Positions 332 to 49,763 of a DNA stretch of 64,000 bases are shown in pieces (within the stretch, counting starts at the first letter, position 1; each line of letters begins with the position of its first letter). Source of the DNA: an uncultured Pseudomonadales bacterium (lineage in GTDB: Bacteria; Patescibacteriota; Microgenomatia; UBA1400; PJMF01). A program made the position numbers and the translations under genes. The notes under the pieces were generated by a model. That model was not told the DNA's origin, ran no database searches, and saw only the letters and a list, made by a program, of their open reading frames with translations. The stretch covers positions 141,473-205,472 of the forward strand of contig CAYPPX010000001.1 of assembly GCA_964412775.1 (NCBI GenBank), in the 5' to 3' direction.

Positions 332-1384
332 TCACAGTTCACTAATATCCCAGTGAGGTTTGCGATCTAGTTTTTGAGGTTGAGTTTTTTGATTGATTAC
401 TTGATAGTAACCAGTCACACCAATCATCGCTCCATTATCACCACATAACCTTTTGGTATAGGGAGTTCTAAATTTAAGTTTAAATTCTTGAGCGACTTTT
501 CTCAGTTCAGCTTTAAGTTGCGTATTGGCAGCGACTCCACCACCCAGCCAAAGTTCTTTAACTTCTAGCTGAGCCAAAAGCTTCCGAAGTTTATAAGTAA
601 TGTGTCGAAAGACGCCGTATTGAAGTCCAGCACAAAAATTAATAATAGTTTGTTTATCTAGCTGATTGTTTTGGTCTAGTTTTTCGATCATTTTTCTGGA
701 ATGAGTTTTCATGCCAGAAAAACTCATGTTGAAATCATTACTAGTGGTCATTGGTAATGGGAAATCAAAGGCTTTTGGGTCGCCTTTTTTGGCAAATAGT
801 TCGACAGTTGGTCCGGCGGGGTAGCCAAGACCTAATATTCGACCGACTTTGTCTAAGCACTCACCAGCGGCGTCATCTAAAGTTGTACCAAGTTTTTTGT
901 ATTCACCAATCTTTTTAACTAGGACGAATTCAGTATGTCCACCAGAAACAACTACTGATAAAGCAGGCAACTGTGGTTGAATTGAAGAGAATGCTTTTTT
1001 AGTTGGTTTAGCTTGAGCCAGCACAGACAAAATATGGCCTTCAATATGGTTAACTGCTAAAACTGGTTTATGGTATTTTTTACCAAGTTCAATTACCTTT
1101 TCGATACCGATCTCCAAAGCTGGTGCTAAACCAGGACCTTGGGTAACAGCCAGGTAATCAATTTGTTCAATTTTAAGTTGAGCTTTTTTTAGCGCGGCTG
1201 TGATAGTTGGTTCAATATTTTCCTGATGAGCTTGTTTAGCTACTGTTGGAAAAACGCCACCATATTGTTGATGAAGATTAATTTGTGAGGCAACGACATT
1301 GCTCAAGATTTTTTGACCTTGGTTAACCGCCACAGAGGTCTCATCACAAGAAGTATCAATCGCTAAAATATAAGGATTTTTCAT
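332..1384 (-). CDS. tsaD: tRNA N6-adenosine threonylcarbamoyltransferase TsaD (Kae1/YgjD family)
   Basis: 350 aa. N-terminus is ILAIDTSCDETSVAV, HxEGH metal motif is NHIEGHILS, and the C-terminal GVxAN region is present. Its start overlaps the upstream gene stop (ATGA). Confidence 0.9.
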   Translation of the reverse strand: MKNPYILAIDTSCDETSVAVNQGQKILSNVVASQINLHQQYGGVFPTVAKQAHQENIEPTITAALKKAQLKIEQIDYLAVTQGPGLAPALEIGIEKVIELGKKYHKPVLAVNHIEGHILSVLAQAKPTKKAFSSIQPQLPALSVVVSGGHTEFVLVKKIGEYKKLGTTLDDAAGECLDKVGRILGLGYPAGPTVELFAKKGDPKAFDFPLPMTTSNDFNMSFSGMKTHSRKMIEKLDQNNQLDKQTIINFCAGLQYGVFRHITYKLRKLLAQLEVKELWLGGGVAANTQLKAELRKVAQEFKLKFRTPYTKRLCGDNGAMIGVTGYYQVINQKTQPQKLDRKPHWDISEL

Positions 1385-2454
1385 TGTTCTGACACCTTAA
1401 TTTCTCTAGCTGAAAGGTCGTCTTCAACTTCACTGATCGAGATCTCTAAATCAATCGGTAAATCTGTCGGCCAGTAGTCTTTGACTTGTTGCCACCACTC
1501 GATAATGACAATGTTGTTGGGTTGAACTAAATTTGGGACATTTAGTAATGACCAAGCTGCTTGGCTATCGATTTTCCAGACATCCAGGTGGTGAAGTATC
1601 CCGGTTATTTGGTGTCGGTCAAATTCGTACTGATTCATGTAGGTGTAGGTTGGAGAAGTAATGGGTTGGTTAATGTTCAAAAAATTAGCCACTCCCTGAG
1701 TAAAAATAGTTTTACCGGTGCCAAGTTTGCCATTTAAGCCGATCACTAGACCTTTTTCTTTGACTTGATTCCAGTTTTTGAGCATAAGCTTACCAGCTAA
1801 ACTTTTAGTTTCTTTTGTTGATTTAGTGAGAAAGTTTTTAGTTTTTTCAGTGGAGAGACTGCCCCTAACTTCCAATGGAGTAGAAAGTGTTGTATCAACC
1901 ACAATTGATGGTTCATTGGGAGGTAGTTTGCCAGCATCAATCACTAAGTCTAGGAGATTTTTTTGTTTGTCAGAAATATGGTCAAAAATATCTTGAATAG
2001 TGTAAGGTCGTTTTTTACCAGAAGCATTGGCCGAAGTTGCTGTGACTGGTTTATTAAATTTAGCCACTAAATCAGTGATTAACGGAAAATCAGGAATTCT
2101 AATGCCCAAAGTACCAAACTCTGATTCAACAAATGGGGCAACTTGGTTTTTACCTTGAGAAACAATCGTGTATGGTCCTGGTAAAAATTTTTGGTAAAAG
2201 TTTTTAGCCTGATCAGTTAGTTCAACATATTGTTCGGCCATCGCTTGGTTTTTGACAGCTACAGATAAAGGTTTGCCCTCTCGGCGAGTTTTGTATTTCA
2301 AGAGTTTCTCGACTGCTTGAGGGTTAGTAGCATCAACTCCAATGCCGTAAACAGTCTCAGTGGGATAAATCACTAAACCACCAGCCGCCAAAACTTGGCA
2401 GGCGGTAGCGACAACTTCTGAGTGGTTATTTGCAGTTAGTTTTAGTATTTGCAC
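1381..2454 (-). CDS. tsaC/tsaE: fusion of L-threonylcarbamoyladenylate synthase (TsaC/Sua5/YrdC domain) with the t6A ATPase TsaE (YjeE domain)
   Basis: N-terminal half carries YrdC motifs (YPTETVYGIG, KxR, SANxSG). After a Lys/Thr linker the C-terminal approx 130 aa carry the TsaE P-loop GLNGKLGTGKT and the conserved SPTYT...HxD block. Confidence 0.8.
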   Translation of the reverse strand: MQILKLTANNHSEVVATACQVLAAGGLVIYPTETVYGIGVDATNPQAVEKLLKYKTRREGKPLSVAVKNQAMAEQYVELTDQAKNFYQKFLPGPYTIVSQGKNQVAPFVESEFGTLGIRIPDFPLITDLVAKFNKPVTATSANASGKKRPYTIQDIFDHISDKQKNLLDLVIDAGKLPPNEPSIVVDTTLSTPLEVRGSLSTEKTKNFLTKSTKETKSLAGKLMLKNWNQVKEKGLVIGLNGKLGTGKTIFTQGVANFLNINQPITSPTYTYMNQYEFDRHQITGILHHLDVWKIDSQAAWSLLNVPNLVQPNNIVIIEWWQQVKDYWPTDLPIDLEISISEVEDDLSAREIKVSEQ

Positions 2455-2527
2455 CAGATCTGTATTTTACCAGGTTTGTGAAGTTTTTTGCTTCCTTTAG
2501 TTGCAATCTGCAGTATAATGCCACCAC

Positions 2528-2893
2528 ATGCCAATAAAGAGAAACATTAAAGTTTTTATTGACGATCAACTAACAGAAGAAGCAGATGATCAATTATCAG
2601 CTCAAGTTAGGTTTAATTTATACCAACGCCAACAACAAATTTCGGAAATTAGAGCTATTCTTCAAGATTTATCCCAAAAAGGTCAGTCAGAACAAACCGA
2701 GTGGTTGAGAGAAAACCAAGAGTTTGTCACAGAGTTGGCTGAGGATTTTATTGATGACTCGCTCTATCAACTAGATGGAATTAAATTGGATGGTAAAACC
2801 CTTCAGCTGTCAGTTGAAGTCATGACGCAGCTCAAGGAAACTTTGAACCTTTTCCAGACTATTGTTTATGGAGAGGACAATTTAGAAGCATAA
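2528..2893 (+). CDS. hypothetical acidic helical protein
   Basis: 121-aa ORF with no recognisable motif. The protein is Gln/Glu-rich. Confidence 0.4.
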   Translation: MPIKRNIKVFIDDQLTEEADDQLSAQVRFNLYQRQQQISEIRAILQDLSQKGQSEQTEWLRENQEFVTELAEDFIDDSLYQLDGIKLDGKTLQLSVEVMTQLKETLNLFQTIVYGEDNLEA

Positions 2894-2932
2894 TATCCCA
2901 AATAATTAATTTTTAGGGTAGAATAGTATTCT

Positions 2933-3571
2933 ATGGAATTTGATAGACTAGTTGTTTCATTTTTAGTTGATGAAGTCGTAGGTGGCTTCTTTATTTCTGT
3001 GCCTCCTGGTCAGGTGGCCTGTGTTTATGACCGTGGTCGTGGTGTTTTACCCAAAGTTTGGGGACCAGGTCTTCATCTAAAGATTCCTTTTTGGCAAGTT
3101 GCTAAATTATTTAATGCTCAAGTTTTAGAGTACTCAATTGACAAGACTTTTGATTTGTCTGCCAATAAAGAGGCTTTAGGTGACACACCAATCTTGACCT
3201 CAACTAAAGATGGCAAAGATATTTCTGTCGAAGGGTCAGTCTTATTTAGAATTGATCGAGGCAATGCTCCAGAACTCTGGGAGAATATTGGTGAAAATGT
3301 TGTTTCCAAAGTAGTTCGGCCTTTTTCCAGAAGTAGAATCTCATCTTTGATGAGTCAATATACTTTAAACGAAATTAAGAATAATCGCTCTCAAGTTGAG
3401 GGGATTATTCGCGATGATTTGAGTAAGCATTTTCAAGATCGTGGTCTGAACTGTGAGGGTTTCTTGTTATCAGAGGTAAGACTCTTTACCCCAAGAGGGA
3501 AAGAAGAGACTATTATCGAAAAAGAAACCCCAGCTTTACATCAAGTAGAGCATGAAGTTGTCAAAGAATAA
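2933..3571 (+). CDS. SPFH/band-7 (prohibitin/HflKC-like) domain protein
   Basis: 212 aa. Band-7-like segments (e.g. ILTSTKDGKDISVEGSVLFRI, then a helical C-terminus). Confidence 0.55.
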   Translation: MEFDRLVVSFLVDEVVGGFFISVPPGQVACVYDRGRGVLPKVWGPGLHLKIPFWQVAKLFNAQVLEYSIDKTFDLSANKEALGDTPILTSTKDGKDISVEGSVLFRIDRGNAPELWENIGENVVSKVVRPFSRSRISSLMSQYTLNEIKNNRSQVEGIIRDDLSKHFQDRGLNCEGFLLSEVRLFTPRGKEETIIEKETPALHQVEHEVVKE

Positions 3572-40278: not shown

Positions 40279-41028
40279 ATGTCGTTACTTAAAGTTACTG
40301 ATCTGGTGACCCAAATTGATGGTCAGCCGATTTTAAAAGGTTTGAACTTGGAAATTGAGGCTGGTAAATCAGTGGTGATTATGGGGCCAAATGGCTCTGG
40401 TAAGTCGACTTTATCCAAAGTTTTGGCAGGTCATCCTGATTATGAGTCGACTGGCTCGATTATTTTTAATGGCAAAGAAATTTTTGAGCTATCTCCTGAT
40501 GAACGAGCCAAAGAGGGTTTGTTTTTAGCTTTCCAATATCCAGTCGAAATTCCTGGTGTTAAAGTGTTGAATTTTTTGTGGACTATTTATACCCAAAAAA
40601 ATCCAGATCGAGAAACCAGAGAATATAAGTCAATTGTTGAGTTTAAAAACTTTTTAGAAACCAAAGCCAAAGAATTAGATATTTCCACAAAACTTCTAAC
40701 CAGAGGGTTAAATGAAGGTTTTTCTGGTGGGGAGAAAAAGCGGTTGGAGATTTTACAGATGGCAGTCCTCAAACCTAAATTAGCCATTCTTGATGAGACT
40801 GACTCTGGTTTAGATATTGATGCTATTCGAGTTGTAGCCCAAGGAGTTGAACAAATCAGACAAGAAACCGGGATGACGGTGTTGATCATTACTCATTACC
40901 AACGAATTTTACAATACATGACTTATGACCAAGTCTTGGTTGTCGCTGGTGGTCGAGTGGTGAAAGAAGGTGGACCAGAATTAGTAGATGAACTAGAACA
41001 AACCGGTTATGGCCAGATTCGCAACTAA
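40279..41028 (+). CDS. sufC: Fe-S cluster assembly ATPase SufC
   Basis: ABC ATPase with Walker A GPNGSGKST and LSGGEKKR. Confidence 0.95.
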   Translation: MSLLKVTDLVTQIDGQPILKGLNLEIEAGKSVVIMGPNGSGKSTLSKVLAGHPDYESTGSIIFNGKEIFELSPDERAKEGLFLAFQYPVEIPGVKVLNFLWTIYTQKNPDRETREYKSIVEFKNFLETKAKELDISTKLLTRGLNEGFSGGEKKRLEILQMAVLKPKLAILDETDSGLDIDAIRVVAQGVEQIRQETGMTVLIITHYQRILQYMTYDQVLVVAGGRVVKEGGPELVDELEQTGYGQIRN

Positions 41029-42436
41029 AAAAACCAAACCAGGAGATGATTTTATCCAAAACGATTATCAGCATGGATATTCTTTTGGGACCAAAGACTA
41101 TGTTTTTCAGGCTGATAAAGGCTTGACCGAGGAGTTGATTCGTCAGATTTCTGCGATGAAGCACGAGCCAGCTTGGATGCTGGAGTTGAGGTTGAAAGGC
41201 TTTGCTGAGTTTAAAGTTAAACAGAATCCTCTTTGGGGAGCTGATTTGTCTGCTATTACTTTTGATGATTTATCTTATTATTTGAAACCAACTGCAGGCC
41301 AAGCTAAGTCTTGGGATGATGTGCCACCAGAAGTAAGAGAGACTTTTGATCGGATTGGTGTGCCAGAAGCAGAAAAACAATATTTAGCTGGTATTAAAGC
41401 TCAATATGACAGTGAAGTAGTTTATGGTTCGCTCAAACAAACTTGGGAAAAAGATGGGGTGATTTTTTTGTCTATGGATGAGGGGTTAGCTAAATACCCA
41501 GATTTGGTCAAAGAACATTTTACTAAAGTAATTGCTCATAATGATAATAAATATGCTGCGTTAAATACGGCGGTGTGGTCTGGTGGGTCATTTGTTTATG
41601 TGCCACCTGGAGTGCAGGTTAAAATGCCACTCCAGACTTATTTTAGAATTAACTCCGAGGCTTTCGGTCAATTTGAGAGAACCCTAATTATTGTGGATGA
41701 AGGGGCTTCAGTTCATTATGTCGAGGGTTGTACCGCTCCTCAATTCTCATCAACGTCACTTCATTCTGCTGTGGTAGAAATTGTGGTAAAAAAAGGTGCG
41801 ACTTGTCAGTACACTACGGTTCAGAATTGGTACAAGAATATTTATAACCTAGTGACCAAGAGATCTTATGTTCATGAAGAAGGTAAGATGATTTGGACTG
41901 ATTTCAACATGGGTTCCAAGGTCACGATGAAATACCCAGGTTTTGTTTTGGCTGGCAAAGGGGCTCATGGTGAAGTTTTATCAATGGCTTTAGCTGGTCA
42001 TGGTCAGCATCAAGATACTGGTGCCAAAGCAATTCATTTAGCTCCATATACTTCTTCAACCATTATTTCTAAATCGATTAGTAAAGATGGTGGTCGAGCC
42101 AGCTACCGGGGAATGGTTCATGTTGGGCCCAAAGCTCATCACAGTAAGAATACGGTAGTGTGTGATGCGTTATTACTGGATGATAAATCTCAGTCTGACA
42201 CTTACCCGTTGGATAAGGTTTTTAATAATCAGATTGAAGTTCAGCATGAAGCGACCGTGTCCAAAATTGGTGATGATCAGCTTTTTTACTTGATGAGTCG
42301 TGGTGTTTCAGAAGAGGATGCCAGAAAAATGATCGTGAATGGTTTCATTGCTGATCTAGTGAAAAAATTACCTTTGGAATACGCAGTGGAAATGAACCGC
42401 TTAATTGACTTTGAGATGGAAGGTTCAATCGGCTAA
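41009..42436 (+). CDS. sufB: Fe-S cluster assembly scaffold SufB
   Basis: 475 aa with the SufB/D beta-helix C-terminal region. Overlaps the sufC end. Confidence 0.9.
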   Translation: MARFATKKTKPGDDFIQNDYQHGYSFGTKDYVFQADKGLTEELIRQISAMKHEPAWMLELRLKGFAEFKVKQNPLWGADLSAITFDDLSYYLKPTAGQAKSWDDVPPEVRETFDRIGVPEAEKQYLAGIKAQYDSEVVYGSLKQTWEKDGVIFLSMDEGLAKYPDLVKEHFTKVIAHNDNKYAALNTAVWSGGSFVYVPPGVQVKMPLQTYFRINSEAFGQFERTLIIVDEGASVHYVEGCTAPQFSSTSLHSAVVEIVVKKGATCQYTTVQNWYKNIYNLVTKRSYVHEEGKMIWTDFNMGSKVTMKYPGFVLAGKGAHGEVLSMALAGHGQHQDTGAKAIHLAPYTSSTIISKSISKDGGRASYRGMVHVGPKAHHSKNTVVCDALLLDDKSQSDTYPLDKVFNNQIEVQHEATVSKIGDDQLFYLMSRGVSEEDARKMIVNGFIADLVKKLPLEYAVEMNRLIDFEMEGSIG

Positions 42437-42438
42437 AG

Positions 42439-42924
42439 ATGACAACGTATCAAATCAAAGCTAACGAACACCAAGCAATTACTTTGGAAAAACCAGGTAA
42501 ATATGTGATTGAGTTGGTGGGTGAAGGTGCCAGTGTAGATATCAAAGGTATCTTTCAAACAAAGCAAAGTGAAACTTGTTTACTAGAGGTAGTAATTCAT
42601 CATCAGGCTCCCCATACCAGAGCTGAAACAGTGATGAAAGGCGCTGCCAAGGATAACTCATTTATTCAGTTCAAAGGCAAAATTGTGATTGATCAGGACT
42701 GTGGTGATACCCAATCATTTTTGACTGAAAGGGTGTTATTGTTAAGTGAAACTGCTAGAGCAGAAGCTGTCCCAGATCTAGAAATCAAGACGGATGACGT
42801 GAAATGTTCTCATGCTGCCAGTATTAGTAGCATTACTGATGAACACCTTTTTTATCTTCAATCTAGAGGGATCGAGAAAGCTGTGGCTGAACAAATGATT
42901 GTTGATGGTTTCTTAGAGGTTTAG
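42439..42924 (+). CDS. sufD: SufD-like protein (short, C-terminal SufB/D domain only)
   Basis: 161 aa. Its C-terminal helices (ITDEHLFYLQSRGIEKAVAEQMIVDGFL) parallel the SufB C-terminus. Confidence 0.7.
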   Translation: MTTYQIKANEHQAITLEKPGKYVIELVGEGASVDIKGIFQTKQSETCLLEVVIHHQAPHTRAETVMKGAAKDNSFIQFKGKIVIDQDCGDTQSFLTERVLLLSETARAEAVPDLEIKTDDVKCSHAASISSITDEHLFYLQSRGIEKAVAEQMIVDGFLEV

Positions 42925-42975
42925 ATTAAGTTACTTTTTGTTTTCTAGTCAAATTTGGGTTAAGATATTAGAGTT

Positions 42976-45186
42976 GTGAATGGTCGAAGCGAATTTATTC
43001 CAGAATCCAAATTACTTTCTTCATATGAAGATGAGGAAAGTTTGTTTACTGATAAATCACCAATAGCATATACTTTTGACCCAGAAGCAATTTTGTTAGA
43101 AGCAGAGATAGCAATAGATGATTTAACTGATTTATCAGAACAAAATGAGTTGGTTTTACCAGATAGAATCGATTGGCTGAATTTTGGTGATCAGATAGGA
43201 TTGATTTACCAAACTATTTCTCTTGGTAATGCTAGTGAAGTTGTTGAGTTACTTCCAGCCAAGATAAAAATTACCGATTATGATTTCAACTTTGAAAGGC
43301 TGCTAGAAAATTTAATTAAAGCTGGTTTTGCGGAACAGATAATATCTAAGTTGGTAAAAATTGATTCTTGTGCTGATTTAGTAGATCCCAATAAAGGTTT
43401 TATTACTAGCTTTTTTAGAATGCTGATTAGACTTGGTTATGTTGATCAATTAGTGGTTATATTGCCTGAAATTTACGGCGATATTACCCTAAATAAATGG
43501 ATAGTTGAGATTTATGCTGATTGTGCAAACTTGAGAGAAACTTATAGGGTAAAGTTGGTTGAGGAAATTTCTAACCTTATTCCTCAAGAGATATCACTGG
43601 AAGATGCTTTTCCTTGGGATTTAGCAAACTTATCTTTATTGGCCAGAATAGATATTCAATTTGTTGAAAATTTTTTAGGTAGGTTTAAAAAAGAGGTGAA
43701 TATTTTGGTTTTAAATGAAAAACAACTAGATTTTTTAAATGATTTAGTTGGATTGGGTTTTTCTAATCAGGTGGTCAAACTAATTAAACCCAGTTGTAAC
43801 AGAAAAATTAGTCGCGAAGCTTGTTATTTATTGCATCGTTTAGCAAAGAACGGTCAAGAAAATATTGCTCTTGAGTTTGTGAAAATTGCTTTGGATAAAA
43901 GTGATAGTACAACAGTTTCTGTTTGTTCCTCTTTAGTTGAAAAAGGTTTTGCTGATGAAGTAATAGCTTTGGGAATTTTACCTGACAATTTTTTAATGGG
44001 TTCCCCCGATTTAAATAAATATATTTCTTTATTTATGGCTTTAGTTAAAGTTGGTAAAGGCAGTGAAATAATAAAAAGAATAACCAGAATTAACTTGAAT
44101 AGTTTAGAACCATTAGAATATGAATTTATAGATAGGTTGATTAAATTTAATTTTTCTGGAGATTTAGCAAGACTTATTTCTGATTATATTGATTACAGTC
44201 ACTTGACTTCTAAAGCCAGAAGATTTTTAGCAAAACTTGCGCCAGTATCTCCTAAAATTAAAGAGGGTTTACTGAGTAATATTCCTGAGAAATTTGACTT
44301 ATCTATGATTAACGAACTGATTTTATATCTTGATGGTTTATTAGACGGACCACTGGCAGATGAAATATTAAGTCGTTTTACTGGTTTAAACCAGCTAACG
44401 GACTTTAAATATGACTTTTATGGCCAAGATAGTGATAGAAATCAATTGTATTTTTTGACAGAAATTGCAATTAGTGGCCATGTTGACCAATTAAATGCTT
44501 TATTTGCAGAAATTTTTAAGAAGATTGAATCAGGGTTGAGACAACCAATTGATCATGAGTCACTATCATTAACTAGAAAAGCAGGGCCACATTTACATGA
44601 ATTAATTAAAAAATTTCCAATTATTGATGGTTATGGAGAATCTTTAAGATTTGGTTGGATCAAAAGAAAAGTCAATAAAGGTGGTAGTGAAAATTTTGTC
44701 TATTTAAACTTAGGAGCTGGCAATTTAAAAGTTATTTTTCGAAGCAGTTTAATTCAACAATCTTATTTAGCTAGTTATCAAAAAGCCTTTAATTTAATTC
44801 CAGACTATGTAGTTGGTGCTAACTATCCAGAGTTACAAAATAATAAAAGTGAAAAAAAATGTCTTAGCGTTGATAGTTTGGGTAGTTATCGAGAAGTTTA
44901 TGCTGGACCAAGTTTGGATTTACTAGATCTCGATGCTTTACCGGTAACAGTAAGAGATTCCATAGAAAATCAGCGTAAATATATTTTGTTAAAGTTGGGT
45001 ATTAATGGTATTAACCATGGTCATGCTCATGAGAGAAACTTTAATGTTCGTTTCCTTTTAACTAAAGGGCAACAAAAAAAACTTTTTTTTGATGTTAATA
45101 TGGCTATTCGTTTTGCTATTGAGCAACAAATGGCTTTAACACCAATTGTGACTTTGAGAGATTGGGATGCAGCGACCAGTAGCTAG
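42976..45186 (+). CDS. large hypothetical helical-repeat protein inserted in the suf operon
   Basis: 736 aa. GTG start. At least 7 degenerate approx 35-aa repeats of the form L[IV]xxG[FY]x[DENS][QE][IV][IV]xL. A distinct C-terminal approx 200 aa includes INHGHAHERNFNV. Confidence 0.55.
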   Translation: MNGRSEFIPESKLLSSYEDEESLFTDKSPIAYTFDPEAILLEAEIAIDDLTDLSEQNELVLPDRIDWLNFGDQIGLIYQTISLGNASEVVELLPAKIKITDYDFNFERLLENLIKAGFAEQIISKLVKIDSCADLVDPNKGFITSFFRMLIRLGYVDQLVVILPEIYGDITLNKWIVEIYADCANLRETYRVKLVEEISNLIPQEISLEDAFPWDLANLSLLARIDIQFVENFLGRFKKEVNILVLNEKQLDFLNDLVGLGFSNQVVKLIKPSCNRKISREACYLLHRLAKNGQENIALEFVKIALDKSDSTTVSVCSSLVEKGFADEVIALGILPDNFLMGSPDLNKYISLFMALVKVGKGSEIIKRITRINLNSLEPLEYEFIDRLIKFNFSGDLARLISDYIDYSHLTSKARRFLAKLAPVSPKIKEGLLSNIPEKFDLSMINELILYLDGLLDGPLADEILSRFTGLNQLTDFKYDFYGQDSDRNQLYFLTEIAISGHVDQLNALFAEIFKKIESGLRQPIDHESLSLTRKAGPHLHELIKKFPIIDGYGESLRFGWIKRKVNKGGSENFVYLNLGAGNLKVIFRSSLIQQSYLASYQKAFNLIPDYVVGANYPELQNNKSEKKCLSVDSLGSYREVYAGPSLDLLDLDALPVTVRDSIENQRKYILLKLGINGINHGHAHERNFNVRFLLTKGQQKKLFFDVNMAIRFAIEQQMALTPIVTLRDWDAATSS

Positions 45187-45220
45187 TGGCAATTTCCAGA
45201 TATCTGTTACAATTTAATTT

Positions 45221-46477
45221 ATGTTTGATCCACAAAAAATTGTTCAAGATTTCCCGATTTTGCACCAAAAGGTTCATGGTGATAAAAGGCTTATTTATTT
45301 GGATAGTGGTGCTACCTCTCAAAAACCAAAACAAGTGATTGAGGCTATTAGTGAATACTATTTAAATGATAACGCCAATGTCCACCGAGGTGTTCATGTC
45401 TTATCAGATAGAAGTACCCAAGTTTGGGAGGAAAGTCGAGCTACAATTGCGAATTTTTTTGGTGCCTTTCCTGAAGAGTTAATTATTACTAGAAATACGA
45501 CTGAGGCTAGTAATGGAATTGCTTATGGTTGGGAACATAATCTCCAGTCAGGAGATGTTTTGGTTAGCACCATGATGGAGCATCACGCTAACTTGGTTGT
45601 TTGGCAAGAATTGGCCAAAAGAACTGGTGCGATTTTAAAAGTAGTTAATTTAAAAAATAAAGCAGAATTAGACCTAGACCACTTAACCGAGATCCTGAAG
45701 CAAGGTAAGGTTAAATTAGTAGCTTTTAATCATGTCTCTAACTCCCTTGGAACTGTCAATCCAGTTGCTGAAATTGTCAAGTTGGTGAAAAAACATGCTG
45801 GTGGAGCTAGAACGGTGGTGGATGCCGCCCAATCTGCCCCGCATCTGCCGATCAACTTTCACCAGTTGAAGGTAGATTTCCTGATTTTTAGTGGTCACAA
45901 AATGTTAGCGCCGATGGGAGTGGGTGGGTTATTGGTTAGAAAAGAGCTAATGGTTAATGAAGAATTTAAGCCATGGTTATTCGGTGGTGGGATGATTGAT
46001 CAGGTTCATGCTGAAACTGCTAGTTATTCTCCAGATTTAGCTGATCGATTTACTGCCGGGACACCTGATGTAGCCTCGACTAGAGGGTTGGCCGTTGCTT
46101 GTGAATATTTATCTAATTTGGATATGACTGAAGTAATGAAGCATGATTTTGAATTAGTCACATATGCTTATGATAAATTGAGCCAAATACCAGGTGTAAC
46201 TGTCGTCGGTCTTAAACCAGAACTAGTGAATGGTTTGCCAAATAGGTCTGGCTCAGTCACTTTTATTCACCAGACGGCTCATCCTCATGATCTAGCTCAG
46301 ATTTTGGATAGTGAAGGGGTAGCTGTTAGATCTGGTCATCACTGTACTATGCCATTACATCTTGCCTGTGACTGGCAGGCTACTACCAGAGCCAGTTTCA
46401 ATGTTTATTCAACTAAGAAAGACATTGATATCTTAGTAGCTGCATTTGCTAAAGTAAATAAAATTTTTGGAGTTTAA
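45221..46477 (+). CDS. sufS: cysteine desulfurase SufS (class V aminotransferase)
   Basis: PLP-lysine block FSGHKMLAPMG and catalytic-Cys region HHCTMP. Confidence 0.9.
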   Translation: MFDPQKIVQDFPILHQKVHGDKRLIYLDSGATSQKPKQVIEAISEYYLNDNANVHRGVHVLSDRSTQVWEESRATIANFFGAFPEELIITRNTTEASNGIAYGWEHNLQSGDVLVSTMMEHHANLVVWQELAKRTGAILKVVNLKNKAELDLDHLTEILKQGKVKLVAFNHVSNSLGTVNPVAEIVKLVKKHAGGARTVVDAAQSAPHLPINFHQLKVDFLIFSGHKMLAPMGVGGLLVRKELMVNEEFKPWLFGGGMIDQVHAETASYSPDLADRFTAGTPDVASTRGLAVACEYLSNLDMTEVMKHDFELVTYAYDKLSQIPGVTVVGLKPELVNGLPNRSGSVTFIHQTAHPHDLAQILDSEGVAVRSGHHCTMPLHLACDWQATTRASFNVYSTKKDIDILVAAFAKVNKIFGV

Positions 46478-46478
46478 A

Positions 46479-46862
46479 ATGAATGATTTTTATCAAGAAG
46501 AGATGATCGCTGAGTTTAAAGAACCCCAAAATAGAGGCAAATTAATTGATGCTGATTTTGAGCATGAGGGCAAGAATGCCTCTTGTGGTGATGAGCTGAA
46601 AGTTTATTTGAAATTTTCTGCTGATGGTCAAAAAATTACTGATGTTAAGTGGGAAGGTCATGGCTGTGTCGTGAGTGTGACCAGCATGAGTTTGTTGTCA
46701 GAAAAAATCAAAGGCAAGACTTTGGCGGAGCTTAAAACTTGGGACAAAAGTAATTTGTTACCTTTTTTTGGGATGGCTGAAGTTAATAAAGGTCGTGAAA
46801 AATGTTTTACTTTAGGTTTAAATGCAGTGCAACAAGCCTTAGAAATCTGGCAAGCTAAGTAA
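46479..46862 (+). CDS. sufU: SufU/IscU-like sulfur acceptor scaffold
   Basis: NPxNxG, GKNASCGDEL, GHGCVVS blocks. RBS GGAG before the ATG at 46479. Confidence 0.85.
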   Translation: MNDFYQEEMIAEFKEPQNRGKLIDADFEHEGKNASCGDELKVYLKFSADGQKITDVKWEGHGCVVSVTSMSLLSEKIKGKTLAELKTWDKSNLLPFFGMAEVNKGREKCFTLGLNAVQQALEIWQAK

Positions 46863-47445: not shown

Positions 47446-48153
47446 ATGCCTCCACAAGTTTATAAAGTGAAATTAGCTGATAAAGAAGTGCTTAATAATA
47501 AGTTTACTAGGTTTGATTTTGAGTTAGTTGAACCTCATGAACTTGAATTTTTAGCTGGTCAATATGTGTCTTTCTTGGTTTCTGATAAGGGGGAGAGACG
47601 GTCTTACTCTATCTCTAGCTCTCCAGATATTAAACATGGTTTTAGTATCACTGTTGATGTTACTCCGGCTGGTTTGGGAGTAACTTTTTTGAATAACTTA
47701 AAGTTTGGTGATGAAGCTCAAGTTCTGGGGGCAATGGGTGAGTTTAAAATTCAACTTGAGCCAATTGAAGAAGAGTTAGTATTTATTGCCACTGGTTCTG
47801 GAATTGCCCCATTTAGATCAATGGTAATTGATCTGTTGAAGGATAAACAAGACCAGCGAAAAATTACTTTGTACTGGGGGTTACGTCATGAAGAAGACAT
47901 GATTTGGCAAGATTTATTTCAAGATTATGCTCAGACATTTAGTAATTTTAGTTTTCATCCAGTTTTATCTCAAGCTCAACAAGAATGGCCTTTATGTCGA
48001 GGCAGAGTAACTGATTGTTTAAGTATTCATGACTTGCCAGTTAAAGCTGGTTTTTATTTATGTGGCAATACAGCAATGATTGAGGATGTTAAAAAGGTTT
48101 TATTACAACGTGGGGTAGAACAAAAATTAATTCATCATGAGAAGTTTTATTAA
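47446..48153 (+). CDS. FAD/NAD(P)H-binding ferredoxin-reductase-type oxidoreductase (FNR family)
   Basis: RSYSISS (RxYS FAD motif), GTGSGIAPF, and YLCGNTAM blocks. Confidence 0.75.
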   Translation: MPPQVYKVKLADKEVLNNKFTRFDFELVEPHELEFLAGQYVSFLVSDKGERRSYSISSSPDIKHGFSITVDVTPAGLGVTFLNNLKFGDEAQVLGAMGEFKIQLEPIEEELVFIATGSGIAPFRSMVIDLLKDKQDQRKITLYWGLRHEEDMIWQDLFQDYAQTFSNFSFHPVLSQAQQEWPLCRGRVTDCLSIHDLPVKAGFYLCGNTAMIEDVKKVLLQRGVEQKLIHHEKFY

Positions 48154-49763
48154 TTTAGTAGTTCTTCATAGGTGTAATTGTAGTTGAATTGTTGCTTGTT
48201 TTTGATGATCTGGAATTTCCAAACTGTGAAATTAGCTGATTCGAATATTTTTGTATATTCTTTTTCCAAATATTCTCTGGCTTTAATAAATGGGTTTAGA
48301 CATGAAGAGTTAATTATGTTTACAGAGTTATCCATTCTATGATCACAGATAAAGTAAAAAACATCTGCATCTCTGGTTAGTTGAGCAATATTTAGTCCGT
48401 AGTTAACAGTTCTAACCAATTTTGTTTGGGTTAATTTTTCTAGCTGGTATAAAAAGCCAGTCGTTCCCCATTCATCGTATGGTAAGGTGTGATTAACTTC
48501 CAAGGCCGCTAAGACAAATTTTGGGGTTAGATGTTTTTTATCTAAGTAATAGTCCTGATAGATGACTTCAGCAATAGCTTTTTTTTGTTCATAGAAAGAT
48601 ATGTTCGGATGGGTTACTACCAAGTAGTAGGAATTTTGGTACTGATCGATAAAAATAGTTGTTAGTAGTAATAAACCAATTATTTTAGTAAATTTATTGA
48701 TTTTAAAAAGTTGATAAATTCCTATCGACATCGTAATTAGAAAAAATGGCAAGGTTGAGAGTAAGTAGGTTCTAGCTATATAGCCATTAGATAAAAACAT
48801 AAAAAAGGCTGAACCAGCTAAGATTAGAACAATTTTTGTTTTGTTTTTGAGATCTTGATCTTTTTTTATTAGTAGGCCAAGAAGAGTTAAACCAAATATT
48901 ACAATTTCTGAAAAAATAAAACTTTTACTCGGGTAGGTAGTCCAGACAATACTGTTGATGGTGTTTTTAATTTTATCAATCAAAAGCACAGGTTCTTTTT
49001 CGGTAAAGTTAATAATAAAAAATAAAATCTGATCAAATGGATAATATTTATAAGTTGAAAATATCCATAGCAAAAAGATTAGTAGAGCACTAGCCAGGGG
49101 GACAAAAATATTTTTTGGGGAAGGGTCAAGGTCTATGAGTTTGAACCAAAATTTTGCAAGTAAAAATATGCCGACTGGCATGATTAAAAATACCCCATAG
49201 TGGAAATGTAGACCAATAAATAAGAAAAATGCCGCTGCCGATAGGTAAAAGTAATGAGGTTGTTTTTTAGTTTTTAAAATCATTAATAAAAAAAGCGATG
49301 ACAAAACTGGTAGAAAAAAGGGTTGAAGTAGTTGTCTGCTTTGATAAATTAGTTCGCCATTTATGGCAAAAAATAAAGCTACGATTAACCCAAGTTTGCT
49401 ATCTTTTAGTTCTTTGCCGATTAAGTACCCGATAAGTGGAAATAGGCTAAAGAAAAAAGCCCAAACTTTCATAAAAACTACTGGATCTTTGGTGAACAGC
49501 CAAATAATTGCAACGACATAGTAGTAGAAGGGAGAGTTCATTATCCAATTAAATCCACCGGCTGCAAAAGGACCTCTTTTAATCGTTTCCCCGTAATTTA
49601 CTAGGTGTTCAGCCACTAACATGTCTCGGCTTTCGTCATTACCGATTTGTTCCCAGACCATGTTTTCTATGTTTTTAAATCTAAAAAAGAAACTTATTAC
49701 AATGGTAGCTCCAAGAATAAGATGATAAATATTTATTTTTTTTAGGATTTTTACTAATTTCAT
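48150..49763 (-). CDS. GT-C-fold membrane glycosyltransferase candidate (ArnT/PMT-like)
   Basis: 537 aa with about 12 TM helices and an acidic first-loop segment (GNDESRD). Convergent with the FNR gene, with a 4-nt overlap of stops. Confidence 0.45.
   Translation of the reverse strand: MKLVKILKKINIYHLILGATIVISFFFRFKNIENMVWEQIGNDESRDMLVAEHLVNYGETIKRGPFAAGGFNWIMNSPFYYYVVAIIWLFTKDPVVFMKVWAFFFSLFPLIGYLIGKELKDSKLGLIVALFFAINGELIYQSRQLLQPFFLPVLSSLFLLMILKTKKQPHYFYLSAAAFFLFIGLHFHYGVFLIMPVGIFLLAKFWFKLIDLDPSPKNIFVPLASALLIFLLWIFSTYKYYPFDQILFFIINFTEKEPVLLIDKIKNTINSIVWTTYPSKSFIFSEIVIFGLTLLGLLIKKDQDLKNKTKIVLILAGSAFFMFLSNGYIARTYLLSTLPFFLITMSIGIYQLFKINKFTKIIGLLLLTTIFIDQYQNSYYLVVTHPNISFYEQKKAIAEVIYQDYYLDKKHLTPKFVLAALEVNHTLPYDEWGTTGFLYQLEKLTQTKLVRTVNYGLNIAQLTRDADVFYFICDHRMDNSVNIINSSCLNPFIKAREYLEKEYTKIFESANFTVWKFQIIKNKQQFNYNYTYEELLN

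What the first reader, a model, noticed from the sequence alone, without database searches (positions are those of the whole stretch)
42976..45186. Unknown 736-aa helical-repeat protein with a pseudokinase-like tail, wedged inside the suf operon
- sufC-sufB-sufD(short) is followed not by sufS but by a 736-aa GTG-initiated ORF. sufS-sufU follow after a further 35-nt spacer.
- The protein has at least seven degenerate approx 35-aa repeats built around L[IV]xxG[FY]x[DENS][QE][IV][IV]xL. Examples are LIKAGFAEQIISKLV, LIRLGYVDQLVVIL, LVGLGFSNQVVKLI, LVEKGFADEVIALGI, and LVKVGKGSEIIKRI.
- The distinct C-terminal approx 200 aa contain GINHGHAHERNFNV, which resembles the protein-kinase-like catalytic loop HGDxHxxN with the Asp replaced by His. 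It could be a pseudokinase, but that is speculative.
- No Fe-S-related motif is visible.
- Its position, presumably co-transcribed within an essential Fe-S operon, is unexplained.
- The repeat architecture suggests a scaffold or adaptor.
Basis: partly seen in the sequence, partly recalled or inferred. Interest (0 to 1): 0.65.

Follow-up and report, generated by a model that had tools for sequence, protein, structure and literature searches.

The report
Orphan repeat protein with kinase-fold tail
The 736-aa gene between sufD and sufS is real and belongs to a rare, unnamed, fast-evolving protein family of uncultured ultra-small bacteria that joins a helical-repeat arm to a truncated, histidine-substituted protein-kinase fold; it appears to be an accessory gene sitting at a permissive joint of the suf locus, not a part of the iron-sulfur machinery.

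Summary
The ORF (42976-45186, +, GTG, 736 aa) is as described and is identical in an independent assembly.

- **Repeats.** They are statistically real. They are degenerate copies of a 33-residue unit that is crisp in distant homologues.
- **Family.** No Pfam, NCBIfam, PADLOC or PDB sequence match exists. A full HMMER scan of 1.84 billion representatives found 45 other proteins, none of the ten checked carrying a name.
- **Link to suf.** The two nearest relatives with the same synteny have sufD and sufS 22 nt apart and lack the gene there. One ~35%-identical orthologue sits at the same joint with homologous flanks. The other loci examined (about 15) are not suf-linked.
- **Why this site.** A TGnTACAAT element 5-9 nt before the sufS ATG is conserved in 13 genomes. 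It suggests sufS has its own promoter, which would make the joint permissive. Six of 13 loci carry unrelated cargo there.
- **Composition.** The gene is AT-richer than its neighbours in the four contigs with clear contrast.

Function is inferred only: a partner-binding solenoid plus an atypical kinase-fold enzyme or pseudoenzyme.

The parts
42976..45186 (+). 736-aa ORF (GTG start): N-terminal FPE-like motif, degenerate 33-residue helical repeats, C-terminal kinase-fold domain
43156..44385 (+). Degenerate helical-repeat (alpha-solenoid) region, aa ~61-470. Includes the five clear L[IV]xxG[FY]xx[QE][IV][IV] units at aa 113, 150, 257, 320 and 356.
44464..45183 (+). C-terminal protein-kinase-like domain (aa 497-736), the conserved module of the family
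45007..45051 (+). Catalytic-loop equivalent GINHGHAHERNFNVR (aa 678-692). H681, H685, N688, N690 and R692 are invariant and H683 is >=90% conserved in A1. H683 is at the catalytic-Asp position and N688 at the Mg-binding Asn position.
45157..45168 (+). RDWD (aa 728-731), the DFG equivalent. R728, D729 and D731 are invariant. The protein ends 5 residues later.
42925..42975 (+). 51-nt spacer between sufD and the ORF. Part of it (AGTCAAATT) is shared with the leader of the orthologue in L055. No terminator-like site is predicted in it.
45205..45213 (+). TGTTACAAT, an extended -10-like element 7 nt before the sufS ATG. Its position is conserved in 12 related loci. There is no Shine-Dalgarno sequence.
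40279..42924 (+). sufC, sufB and short sufD (context, upstream unit)
45221..46862 (+). sufS and sufU (context, downstream unit)

Best explanation
The ORF encodes a soluble, acidic, two-module protein of a rare and so far unnamed family. The members whose neighbourhood could be placed are from Patescibacteria (CPR).

- **Module 1 (aa ~61-470).** This is an alpha-solenoid of degenerate 33-residue helix-turn-helix repeats. The repeat number and sequence vary widely between homologues. I infer that it is the partner-binding arm.
- **Module 2 (aa ~497-736).** This is a minimal, C-terminally truncated protein-kinase-like domain. The Mg-binding Asn (N688) and DFG-Asp (D729) equivalents are invariant. 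The catalytic Asp and the adjacent Lys are replaced by His (H683, H685). I infer that it still binds a nucleotide and metal. I also infer that it either carries out non-canonical transfer chemistry on the bound partner or acts as a nucleotide-dependent switch.
- **Relation to SUF.** The gene is an accessory, fast-evolving gene that is probably exchanged horizontally. It is not a SUF component. It sits between sufD and sufS because that joint separates two transcription units: sufS carries its own conserved promoter-like element just before its ATG. The joint therefore tolerates insertions.

Shown here: the ORF, the repeats, the fold, the conserved residues, the distribution, the hotspot and the conserved promoter-like element. 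Inferred: ligand binding, catalysis, partner binding, horizontal transfer and transcription.
For: **Family and conserved module**
- 46 proteins including the query at E<=1e-10 in a full HMMER scan.
- C-terminal identity to the three closest full-length homologues is 45-52%, against 26-31% for the N-terminal part.

**Fold**
- AF2 with 33 sequences gives pLDDT 91.8.
- Foldseek gives prob 0.77-1.00 to CK2, SRPK1 and CK1.

**Motifs**
- H185, H189, N192, N194, R196, R232, D233 and D235 are invariant in A1.
- H-x-H-x-H occurs in about 38 of 44 members, and two members have Asp at the middle position.

**Not SUF**
- L002 and L003 share SOD-exo-nudix-nudix-sufCBD-sufSU-NTPase-FNR synteny. In both, sufD and sufS are 22 nt apart.
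- About 15 other homologue loci have no suf genes and no conserved neighbour.

**Hotspot**
- 6 of 13 loci carry unrelated cargo at the joint.

**Promoter-like element**
- TGnTACAAT lies 5-9 nt before the sufS ATG in 13 genomes.

**Accessory, mobile character**
- GC is 0.312 (GC3 0.20) against about 0.39 (GC3 about 0.32) for the flanking suf genes.
- The contrast is 0.367 vs 0.46 in L055, 0.29 vs 0.39 in L038, and about 0.30 vs about 0.50 in L056.
- Copies are split or truncated in L039, L064 and P0019.
- Toxin-antitoxin or AbiEii genes lie nearby in L057 and L061.
Against: - **A second suf-linked copy.** A ~35%-identical orthologue (P0003, L055) lies at the same position before sufS-sufU-NTPase-FNR with homologous flanks. 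The suf location is therefore old or repeatedly selected, not a one-off accident.
- **Another kinase at the joint.** L006 carries a canonical Ser/Thr kinase at the same joint.
- **ATP-binding pair.** No invariant beta3-Lys/alphaC-Glu pair is seen, so ATP binding is not assured.
- **Residue mapping.** It rests on motif spacing, the order of secondary structure and a non-significant hhalign alignment. It was not read from superposed coordinates.
- **No mobility gene.** There is no integrase or transposase, and no convincing target-site duplication, only a 5-bp GTTAC repeat.
- **No phage or defence match.** There are no hits in viral contigs or PADLOC.
- **GC contrast is not universal.** The gene has about the same GC as its contig in L061 (0.423 vs 0.421), L063 (0.273 vs 0.277) and nearly so in L064 (0.367 vs 0.398).
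- **GC alternative.** Low GC could also reflect weak selection on a fast-evolving gene rather than transfer.
- **Promoter.** The promoter and the leaderless start are consensus-based inferences.
Confidence: 0.55

Rival explanations
1. The protein is a lineage-specific regulator or accessory factor of SUF. Through its kinase-fold domain it would sense iron or nucleotide via the His cluster, or modify SufS/SufU/SufBCD. Its position between sufD and sufS would then be functional.
For: - An orthologous position with homologous flanks occurs in a second genome whose SufS is only 72% identical.
- A Hanks-type kinase whose start overlaps the sufD stop lies at the same joint in L006.
- No terminator-like site is predicted on either side of the ORF.
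- A conserved His-rich site could bind a metal.
Against: - It is absent at this joint from the two nearest syntenic relatives.
- About 15 other family loci lie next to unrelated genes such as ruvB, pnp, S1/YchF and epimerase.
- Other genomes carry unrelated cargo at the same joint, such as Fic/Doc and RNase HII.
- There is no Cys motif or any SUF-family similarity.
Confidence: 0.12
2. The tail is a catalytically dead pseudokinase. The whole protein would be a pure scaffold or adaptor, as in eukaryotic ILK (ankyrin repeats plus pseudokinase).
For: - The catalytic Asp is replaced by His in about 90% of members.
- There is no invariant beta3 Lys or alphaC Glu.
- The C-lobe is truncated right after the DFG equivalent.
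- The repeat arm suggests protein binding.
Against: - The catalytic-loop and DFG-equivalent residues (three His, two Asn, two Arg, two Asp) are the most conserved columns of the family. This is unusual for a site that has lost function.
- From my own knowledge, not tested here: other kinase-fold proteins once called pseudokinases (SelO, SidJ) proved to be enzymes with other chemistry.
Confidence: 0.25
3. It is a non-functional or decaying insertion: a chance ORF or the remnant of a mobile element.
For: - Low GC.
- Patchy presence.
- Truncated or split copies elsewhere.
Against: - An intact 736-codon ORF is reproduced in a second assembly.
- 15 invariant columns are shared across 33 sequences that are only 29-52% identical to the window protein.
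- The domain model is confident.
- The N-terminal motif is conserved.
Confidence: 0.03

Closest known systems
Minimal atypical protein kinases of the protein-kinase-like superfamily (Bud32, RIO1/RIO2, WaaP/Kdo kinases) and Hanks-type kinases
   Same: - The order of elements is the same: beta1-3, alphaC, hinge-like REVYAG, alphaE, then the catalytic loop.
- The spacing is H-x-[D]-x4-N, followed later by a metal-binding Asp (GI.HGH.H..N ... RDWD compared with givHgDl...N ... iDFG).
   Different: - His replaces the catalytic Asp and the following Lys.
- There is no invariant beta3 Lys or alphaC Glu.
- A strand plus a helix are inserted between the Asn and the DFG equivalent, 40 residues instead of about 12.
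- The chain ends 3-6 residues after the DFG equivalent, so alphaF to alphaI are missing.
- An N-terminal helical extension is part of the domain.
- No sequence-level match to any Pfam or NCBIfam kinase model, nor to any PDB chain.
Repeat-plus-kinase-fold proteins such as integrin-linked kinase (ankyrin repeats plus pseudokinase), TNNI3K and RIPK4 (architecture recalled from my own knowledge)
   Same: - An N-terminal array of 33-residue helical repeats is followed by a kinase-fold domain with a non-canonical catalytic loop.
   Different: - The repeats do not match Pfam ankyrin, HEAT or ARM models.
- They lack the TPLH signature.
- The low-confidence full-length model resembles ARM/HEAT/PUF solenoids rather than ankyrin.
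- The protein is bacterial, and there is no evidence of common descent.
Kinase-fold enzymes with non-phosphotransfer chemistry (SelO AMPylase, SidJ glutamylase); a functional analogy from my own knowledge
   Same: A kinase-like fold whose canonical catalytic residues are altered while the active-site region stays strongly conserved.
   Different: No detectable sequence similarity. The chemistry here is unknown, and none of these families appears among the listed top structural hits.
Integration hotspots between conserved core genes that hold variable accessory cargo
   Same: The sufD|sufS joint holds unrelated cargo in 6 of 13 related genomes, including a Fic/Doc toxin-like gene.
   Different: No integrase, tRNA or clear repeat boundary was seen. 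The cargo is one to three genes only.

Membership tests
Protein-kinase-like (PKL) superfamily | Bilobal kinase fold: N-lobe beta-sheet with alphaC, then alphaE, catalytic loop and the beta7/8 core | tested here: met
   [not shown]
Protein-kinase-like (PKL) superfamily | Catalytic-loop motif H-x-D-x4-N with Asp as the catalytic base | tested here: not met
   The spacing and the flanking H and N are invariant. The Asp position is His in about 90% of members. It is Asp only in P0018 and P0040.
Protein-kinase-like (PKL) superfamily | Mg-binding Asn of the catalytic loop and Asp of the DFG motif | tested here: met
   N688 and D729 (A1 N192 and D233) are invariant in 33 sequences. The assignment rests on motif order and spacing, not on superposed coordinates.
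Protein-kinase-like (PKL) superfamily | Beta3 Lys / alphaC Glu ion pair for ATP phosphates | tested here: inconclusive
   K/R is common but not invariant at two positions of the third strand (LKVIFR). No conserved Glu is seen in the following helix. K568 (A1 K72), in the beta1-beta2 turn, is nearly invariant.
Protein-kinase-like (PKL) superfamily | Match to a curated kinase sequence model (Pkinase, APH, RIO1, Kdo, ABC1 and others) | tested here: not met
   There are no Pfam or NCBIfam hits for the window protein, its C-terminal part, or 35 family members. A profile search against PDB sequences found nothing.
Protein-kinase-like (PKL) superfamily | Nucleotide binding and transfer activity | not testable with these tools
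   This needs a biochemical experiment.
Ankyrin repeat proteins | 33-residue helix-turn-helix repeat with the TPLH / GH..VV..LL signature, detected by Ank models | tested here: not met
   The period of 33 and a G-[YF]-x-E-h-h-x-x-L-[LP] pattern are present. No Ank model hit occurs even in homologues with crisp repeats. PDB sequence search of the repeat consensus gave only a weak hit to a 'CAP repeat' protein at E 0.015.
SUF Fe-S assembly system components | Similarity to a known Suf protein or an Fe-S ligand motif | tested here: not met
   No family hit was found. The six Cys are scattered with no motif.
SUF Fe-S assembly system components | Consistent co-occurrence with suf genes across genomes | tested here: not met
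   Only 2 loci (the window and L055) are at the suf joint out of about 17 independent loci. The gene is absent at the joint in the nearest relatives L002 and L003.
Mobile genetic element cargo | Integrase or transposase, terminal repeats or a target-site duplication | tested here: inconclusive
   No such gene is present in the 2.3-kb insert. Only a 5-bp GTTAC repeat occurs in both spacers, which chance can give. Composition contrast in four contigs suggests foreign origin, but three other contigs show none.
Known anti-phage defence systems / phage proteins | Match to PADLOC models or presence on viral contigs | tested here: not met
   PADLOC gave only E>=0.03 noise. The IMG/VR scan found no relative.

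The most novel reading that the evidence does not exclude
The family is a new catalytic class of kinase-fold enzymes. A conserved His pair (H683 and H685, in place of the catalytic Asp and Lys), together with the retained Asn/Asp metal site, would carry out non-phosphotransfer chemistry on a protein captured by the variable solenoid. The function would lie in host interaction or conflict in Patescibacteria. In the window lineage and the L055 lineage it might have been recruited to act on SufS/SufU.
Probability: 0.15. Interest if true: 0.75.

Novelty: new variant of a known kind. Interest (0 to 1): 0.45.

Why it matters
- **A new branch of the kinase fold.** It adds an unnamed, structurally confident family to the protein-kinase-like superfamily. 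The active-site pattern is unusual (HGHxH..N ... RDWD) and the C-lobe is drastically shortened. Such outliers have in the past turned out to be enzymes with new chemistry.
- **Biology of Patescibacteria.** Most genes of these episymbiotic bacteria are unassigned. A fast-evolving protein that pairs a binding arm with a kinase fold is a plausible handle on host interaction or conflict.
- **Annotation of the suf locus.** The analysis explains the odd placement without invoking Fe-S biology. The sufD|sufS joint is a recurrent insertion site, and sufS appears to have its own, probably leaderless, promoter. This matters for reading 'operons' in these genomes.

Tried and rejected
**Searches that found no named family**
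- Pfam, NCBIfam and PADLOC scans of the whole protein, of its parts and of 35 homologues gave no real family. A 34.9-bit EAD11 hit in P0013 comes from summed repeat fragments with no single significant stretch. I did not accept it.
- PDB sequence searches with the protein, the C-terminal profile and a repeat consensus gave nothing significant. The best was 'CAP repeat' 8vd6 at E 0.015.
- The word-indexed homologue search found only the protein itself, or 5 members with a profile. The exhaustive HMMER scan was needed to see the family.
- The listing of cluster members gave no names or accessions.
- Two literature searches gave nothing relevant.

**Structure-related attempts**
- hhalign of the C-terminal profile against the L006 Hanks kinase was not significant (prob 0.1). 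It only gives a consistent local register.
- The AFDB library was not available.

**Ideas considered and dropped**
- An alternative TTG start at codon 23, behind a hairpin. The N-terminal motif is conserved in homologues, so I rejected it.
- A conserved neighbour gene. An epimerase is shared by two loci, which I take as chance.
- A paralogue elsewhere in the window. None was found.
- A loose test for -10 hexamers before all window genes was not enriched over a shifted control, 16 against 12. The leaderless inference therefore rests on the 13-genome conservation before sufS only.
Full report
**1. The observation**

The ORF is present exactly as described: 42976..45186 on the + strand, GTG start, 736 aa. 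It lies between a short sufD and sufS. The short sufD is 161 aa and matches only positions 97-232 of SUFBD_core (E 1.2e-44). SufS matches Aminotran_5 at E 6.9e-120. SufU, an NTPase_I-T gene and an FNR-like gene follow.

The spacers are 51 nt before the ORF and 34 nt after it. The same protein is encoded on an independent Logan assembly of run SRR5011273, so the ORF is not interrupted there. The GTG start is supported by an N-terminal 'xFPE' motif shared with homologues P0002, P0003, P0004, P0008, P0016, P0022 and P0029. The protein is acidic (pI 5.1). It has no hydrophobic segment fit for a membrane span and only six scattered Cys.

**2. The repeats are real**

Distant homologues (P0007, P0009, P0013, P0010 and others) show crisp tandem units of 33 residues. 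Their consensus is LPDKIDLENLSDGAGLLLRSLISKGYTQELIAR.

An HMM built only from those units scores the window protein at 15.7 bits (E 6.6e-7). It gives seven partial matches between aa 61 and 447. The maximum in 500 shuffles was 7.2 bits. The window protein therefore carries degenerate copies of the family repeat.

The class of solenoid is not resolved:
- No Ank, HEAT, ARM or TPR model matches any member.
- The single-sequence AF2 model is poor (pLDDT 41.5). It shows helix pairs, with moderate confidence only at aa 310-440.

**3. There is a family, and its conserved part is the tail**

The word-indexed search saw only the protein itself. An exhaustive HMMER scan of 1.84 billion representatives found 46 proteins including the query at E<=1e-10, 27 of them at E<=1e-30. 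The ten checked are singleton clusters without names.

The shared stretch is aa ~510-735. The N-terminal part varies in length, and family proteins run from about 440 to 860 aa. Against the three closest full-length homologues, the tail is 45-52% identical and the N-terminal part 26-31%.

An alignment of 33 tails (A1) has 15 invariant columns. In protein numbering these include Y617, E640, G644, Q666, H681, H685, N688, N690, R692, R728, D729 and D731. H683, K568 and W561 are at least 90% conserved.

**4. The tail has a protein-kinase-like fold**

The order of elements in the model fits the kinase core:
- three strands (aa 561-591) and a helix (595-607);
- a hinge-like REVYAG;
- a long helix (657-676);
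- the loop GINHGHAHERN;
- strands, then RDWD.

The spacing H681-x-H683-x4-N688 is that of the classical H-x-D-x4-N motif. The only local alignment hhalign finds with a bona fide Hanks kinase puts GINHGHAHERN on GVIHADWNTKN. That alignment is not significant and is used only for register. Two family members, P0018 (HNDDH) and P0040 (HNDST), carry Asp at the H683 position.

My reading of the residues is therefore:
- H683 replaces the catalytic Asp.
- H685 replaces the Lys two residues on.
- N688 and D729 are the metal-binding Asn and DFG-Asp.

The differences from known kinases are large:
- There is no invariant beta3-Lys/alphaC-Glu pair.
- About 40 residues (a strand, a helix and a strand) separate N688 from D729, instead of about 12.
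- The chain ends 5 residues after RDWD, so the alphaF to alphaI part of the C-lobe is absent.
- An N-terminal helical extension is confidently part of the domain.
- No curated kinase model or PDB sequence matches.

Whether the domain is dead is open. The cleft residues are the best-conserved part of the family, which I take as evidence for a working ligand or catalytic site.

**5. Relation to suf**

A scan of species-representative genomes with the short SufD found 13 closely related Patescibacteria loci labelled Pacebacteria, Woesebacteria or Cerribacteria (L002-L014), plus more distant ones.

The two nearest are L002 (SufB 91%, SufS 83%) and L003 (SufB 88%, SufS 72%). Both share the whole SOD-exonuclease-nudix-nudix-sufCBD-sufSU-NTPase-FNR order. 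In both, sufD and sufS are 22 nt apart and there is no trace of the gene.

One homologue, P0003 (34-36% identical), lies directly before sufS (72%), sufU, NTPase and FNR in L055. Both flanks are homologous to those in the window:
- the 3' flank reads TAGTGG...CAGATATnTGTTACAAT;
- the 5' leader contains AGTCAAATT.

The placement is therefore shared by two lineages that are about as far apart as the window and L003.

All other loci examined have no suf genes and no conserved neighbour:
- P0002 lies next to ruvB.
- P0004 lies between the pnp 3' end and SOD.
- P0006 lies in a variable region with AbiEii.
- P0008 lies next to an epimerase.
- P0039 lies between an S1 protein and YchF.
- P0019 lies in an island with BrnT/CopG.
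- The rest are the metagenome loci L044-L052.

**6. Why this site**

Of 13 related loci where both genes are visible, counting the window and L055, seven have a spacer of 13-31 nt. Six carry unrelated cargo:
- the window gene;
- L004: a Fic/Doc protein, an unknown ORF and a reversed RNase HII;
- L006: a Hanks-type kinase (Pkinase E 2.8e-22) plus two reversed ORFs;
- L008, L009 and L014: unknown ORFs.

In all 13, a TGnTACAAT-type element lies 5-9 nt before the sufS ATG. L009 has TATAAT, and three loci lack the upstream TG. The bases between the element and the ATG vary, and there is no Shine-Dalgarno. In the window it is at 45205-45213, and the consensus scan also marks it.

I infer that sufS has its own extended -10 promoter and a leaderless or near-leaderless mRNA. 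The 'operon' would then be at least two units, and a gene inserted before that element need not disturb sufS expression. This is an inference from conservation, not a measurement.

No terminator-like site flanks the ORF. A weak -10-like TAAGAT lies 9 nt before its GTG, and several homologues have a better hexamer 5-6 nt before their starts. Whether the ORF is read through from sufCBD or has its own start is open.

**7. Signs of an accessory, mobile, fast-evolving gene**

- GC is 0.312 (GC3 0.20), against 0.39-0.40 (GC3 0.31-0.34) for sufC, sufB, sufD and sufS.
- The same contrast holds in L055 (0.367 vs 0.46) and L038 (0.29 vs 0.39). It is most marked in L056, an AT-rich block of about 0.30 in a contig of about 0.50.
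- No such contrast is seen in L061 (0.423 vs 0.421), L063 (0.273 vs 0.277) or L064 (0.367 vs 0.398).
- The gene is ~35% identical between the window and L055, where neighbouring proteins are 53-72% identical.
- Copies are split or truncated in L039, L064 and P0019.
- No integrase is present, and there is no convincing target duplication, viral-contig relative or PADLOC match.

**8. Best explanation and rivals**

Best (0.55): an accessory two-module protein. A variable solenoid would bind a partner. An atypical, truncated kinase-fold domain keeps a metal/nucleotide site but has His at the catalytic positions. The gene sits at a permissive boundary in the suf locus and is unrelated to Fe-S assembly.

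The role is inferred from pattern only: fast evolution, patchiness, island contexts and a variable binding arm. On that basis I place it in host interaction or conflict.

Rivals:
- a pure pseudokinase scaffold (0.25);
- a lineage-specific SUF regulator (0.12), kept alive by the L055 orthologue and the L006 kinase at the same joint;
- junk (0.03).

**9. Novelty and score**

The fold is known. The family, its HGHxH..N/RDWD site, the truncated C-lobe and the 33-residue repeat are not in Pfam 2025, NCBIfam 20 or PADLOC, and no solved structure matches by sequence. I rate it a new variant of a known kind.

Interest is 0.45. It is a solid new kinase-fold family in a poorly known phylum, and the analysis gives a tidy explanation of the odd placement. 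It has no demonstrated function, and the Fe-S link, the surprising part of the original finding, is mostly removed.

Noticed in passing
window 45205-45213; L002-L014 and L055 just before sufS: A TGnTACAAT element lies 5-9 nt before the sufS ATG in 13 genomes. The bases in between vary and there is no Shine-Dalgarno. This suggests an internal promoter and a leaderless sufS mRNA. The same TGTTACAAT lies 6 nt before the nudix gene at window 39233.
   Followed up: partly
L004 454-2495; L006 8480-10800; L008 8447-9475; L009 7576-8340; L014 8468-9022: The sufD|sufS joint is a recurrent insertion site with unrelated cargo. L004 has Fic/Doc, an unknown ORF and a reversed RNase HII. L006 has a Hanks-type Ser/Thr kinase whose start overlaps the sufD stop, plus two reversed ORFs. 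The others hold unknown ORFs.
   Followed up: partly
L008 5429-7993; L013 928-3495; L030 4825-7338: SufB is interrupted in frame, with no stops, by an insert of about 370 aa. The insert starts with Cys, ends in VHN followed by Cys, and holds a LAGLIDADG-like block. These are probable SufB inteins.
   Followed up: partly
window 43014-43041: An 11-bp hairpin followed by a T-rich run lies inside codons 13-22 of the 736-aa ORF. It was flagged by the terminator scan and its meaning is unknown.
   Followed up: no
L056 ~800-3450: The homologue P0004 forms an AT-rich block (GC about 0.30) in a contig of GC about 0.50. It lies between the 3' end of pnp (KH-S1 with an RGG tail) and a 309-aa ORF followed by SOD. 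This is the strongest hint of horizontal transfer.
   Followed up: partly
L039 8588-10663; L064 2725-4535; L061 10001-10444: Family genes are split into a repeat ORF plus a kinase-fold ORF (444+220 aa and 429+166 aa), or reduced to a 147-aa fragment. They are either decaying copies or true two-gene versions.
   Followed up: no
window 42439-42924: SufD is only 161 aa in this lineage and matches just the C-terminal half of the SufBD core. This short form is shared by all 13 related Patescibacteria loci.
   Followed up: partly
window 48150-49763 (-): A 537-aa protein with many hydrophobic segments has a GC as low (0.31) as the 736-aa ORF, and it interrupts the + strand gene run. It was not analysed further.
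   Followed up: no
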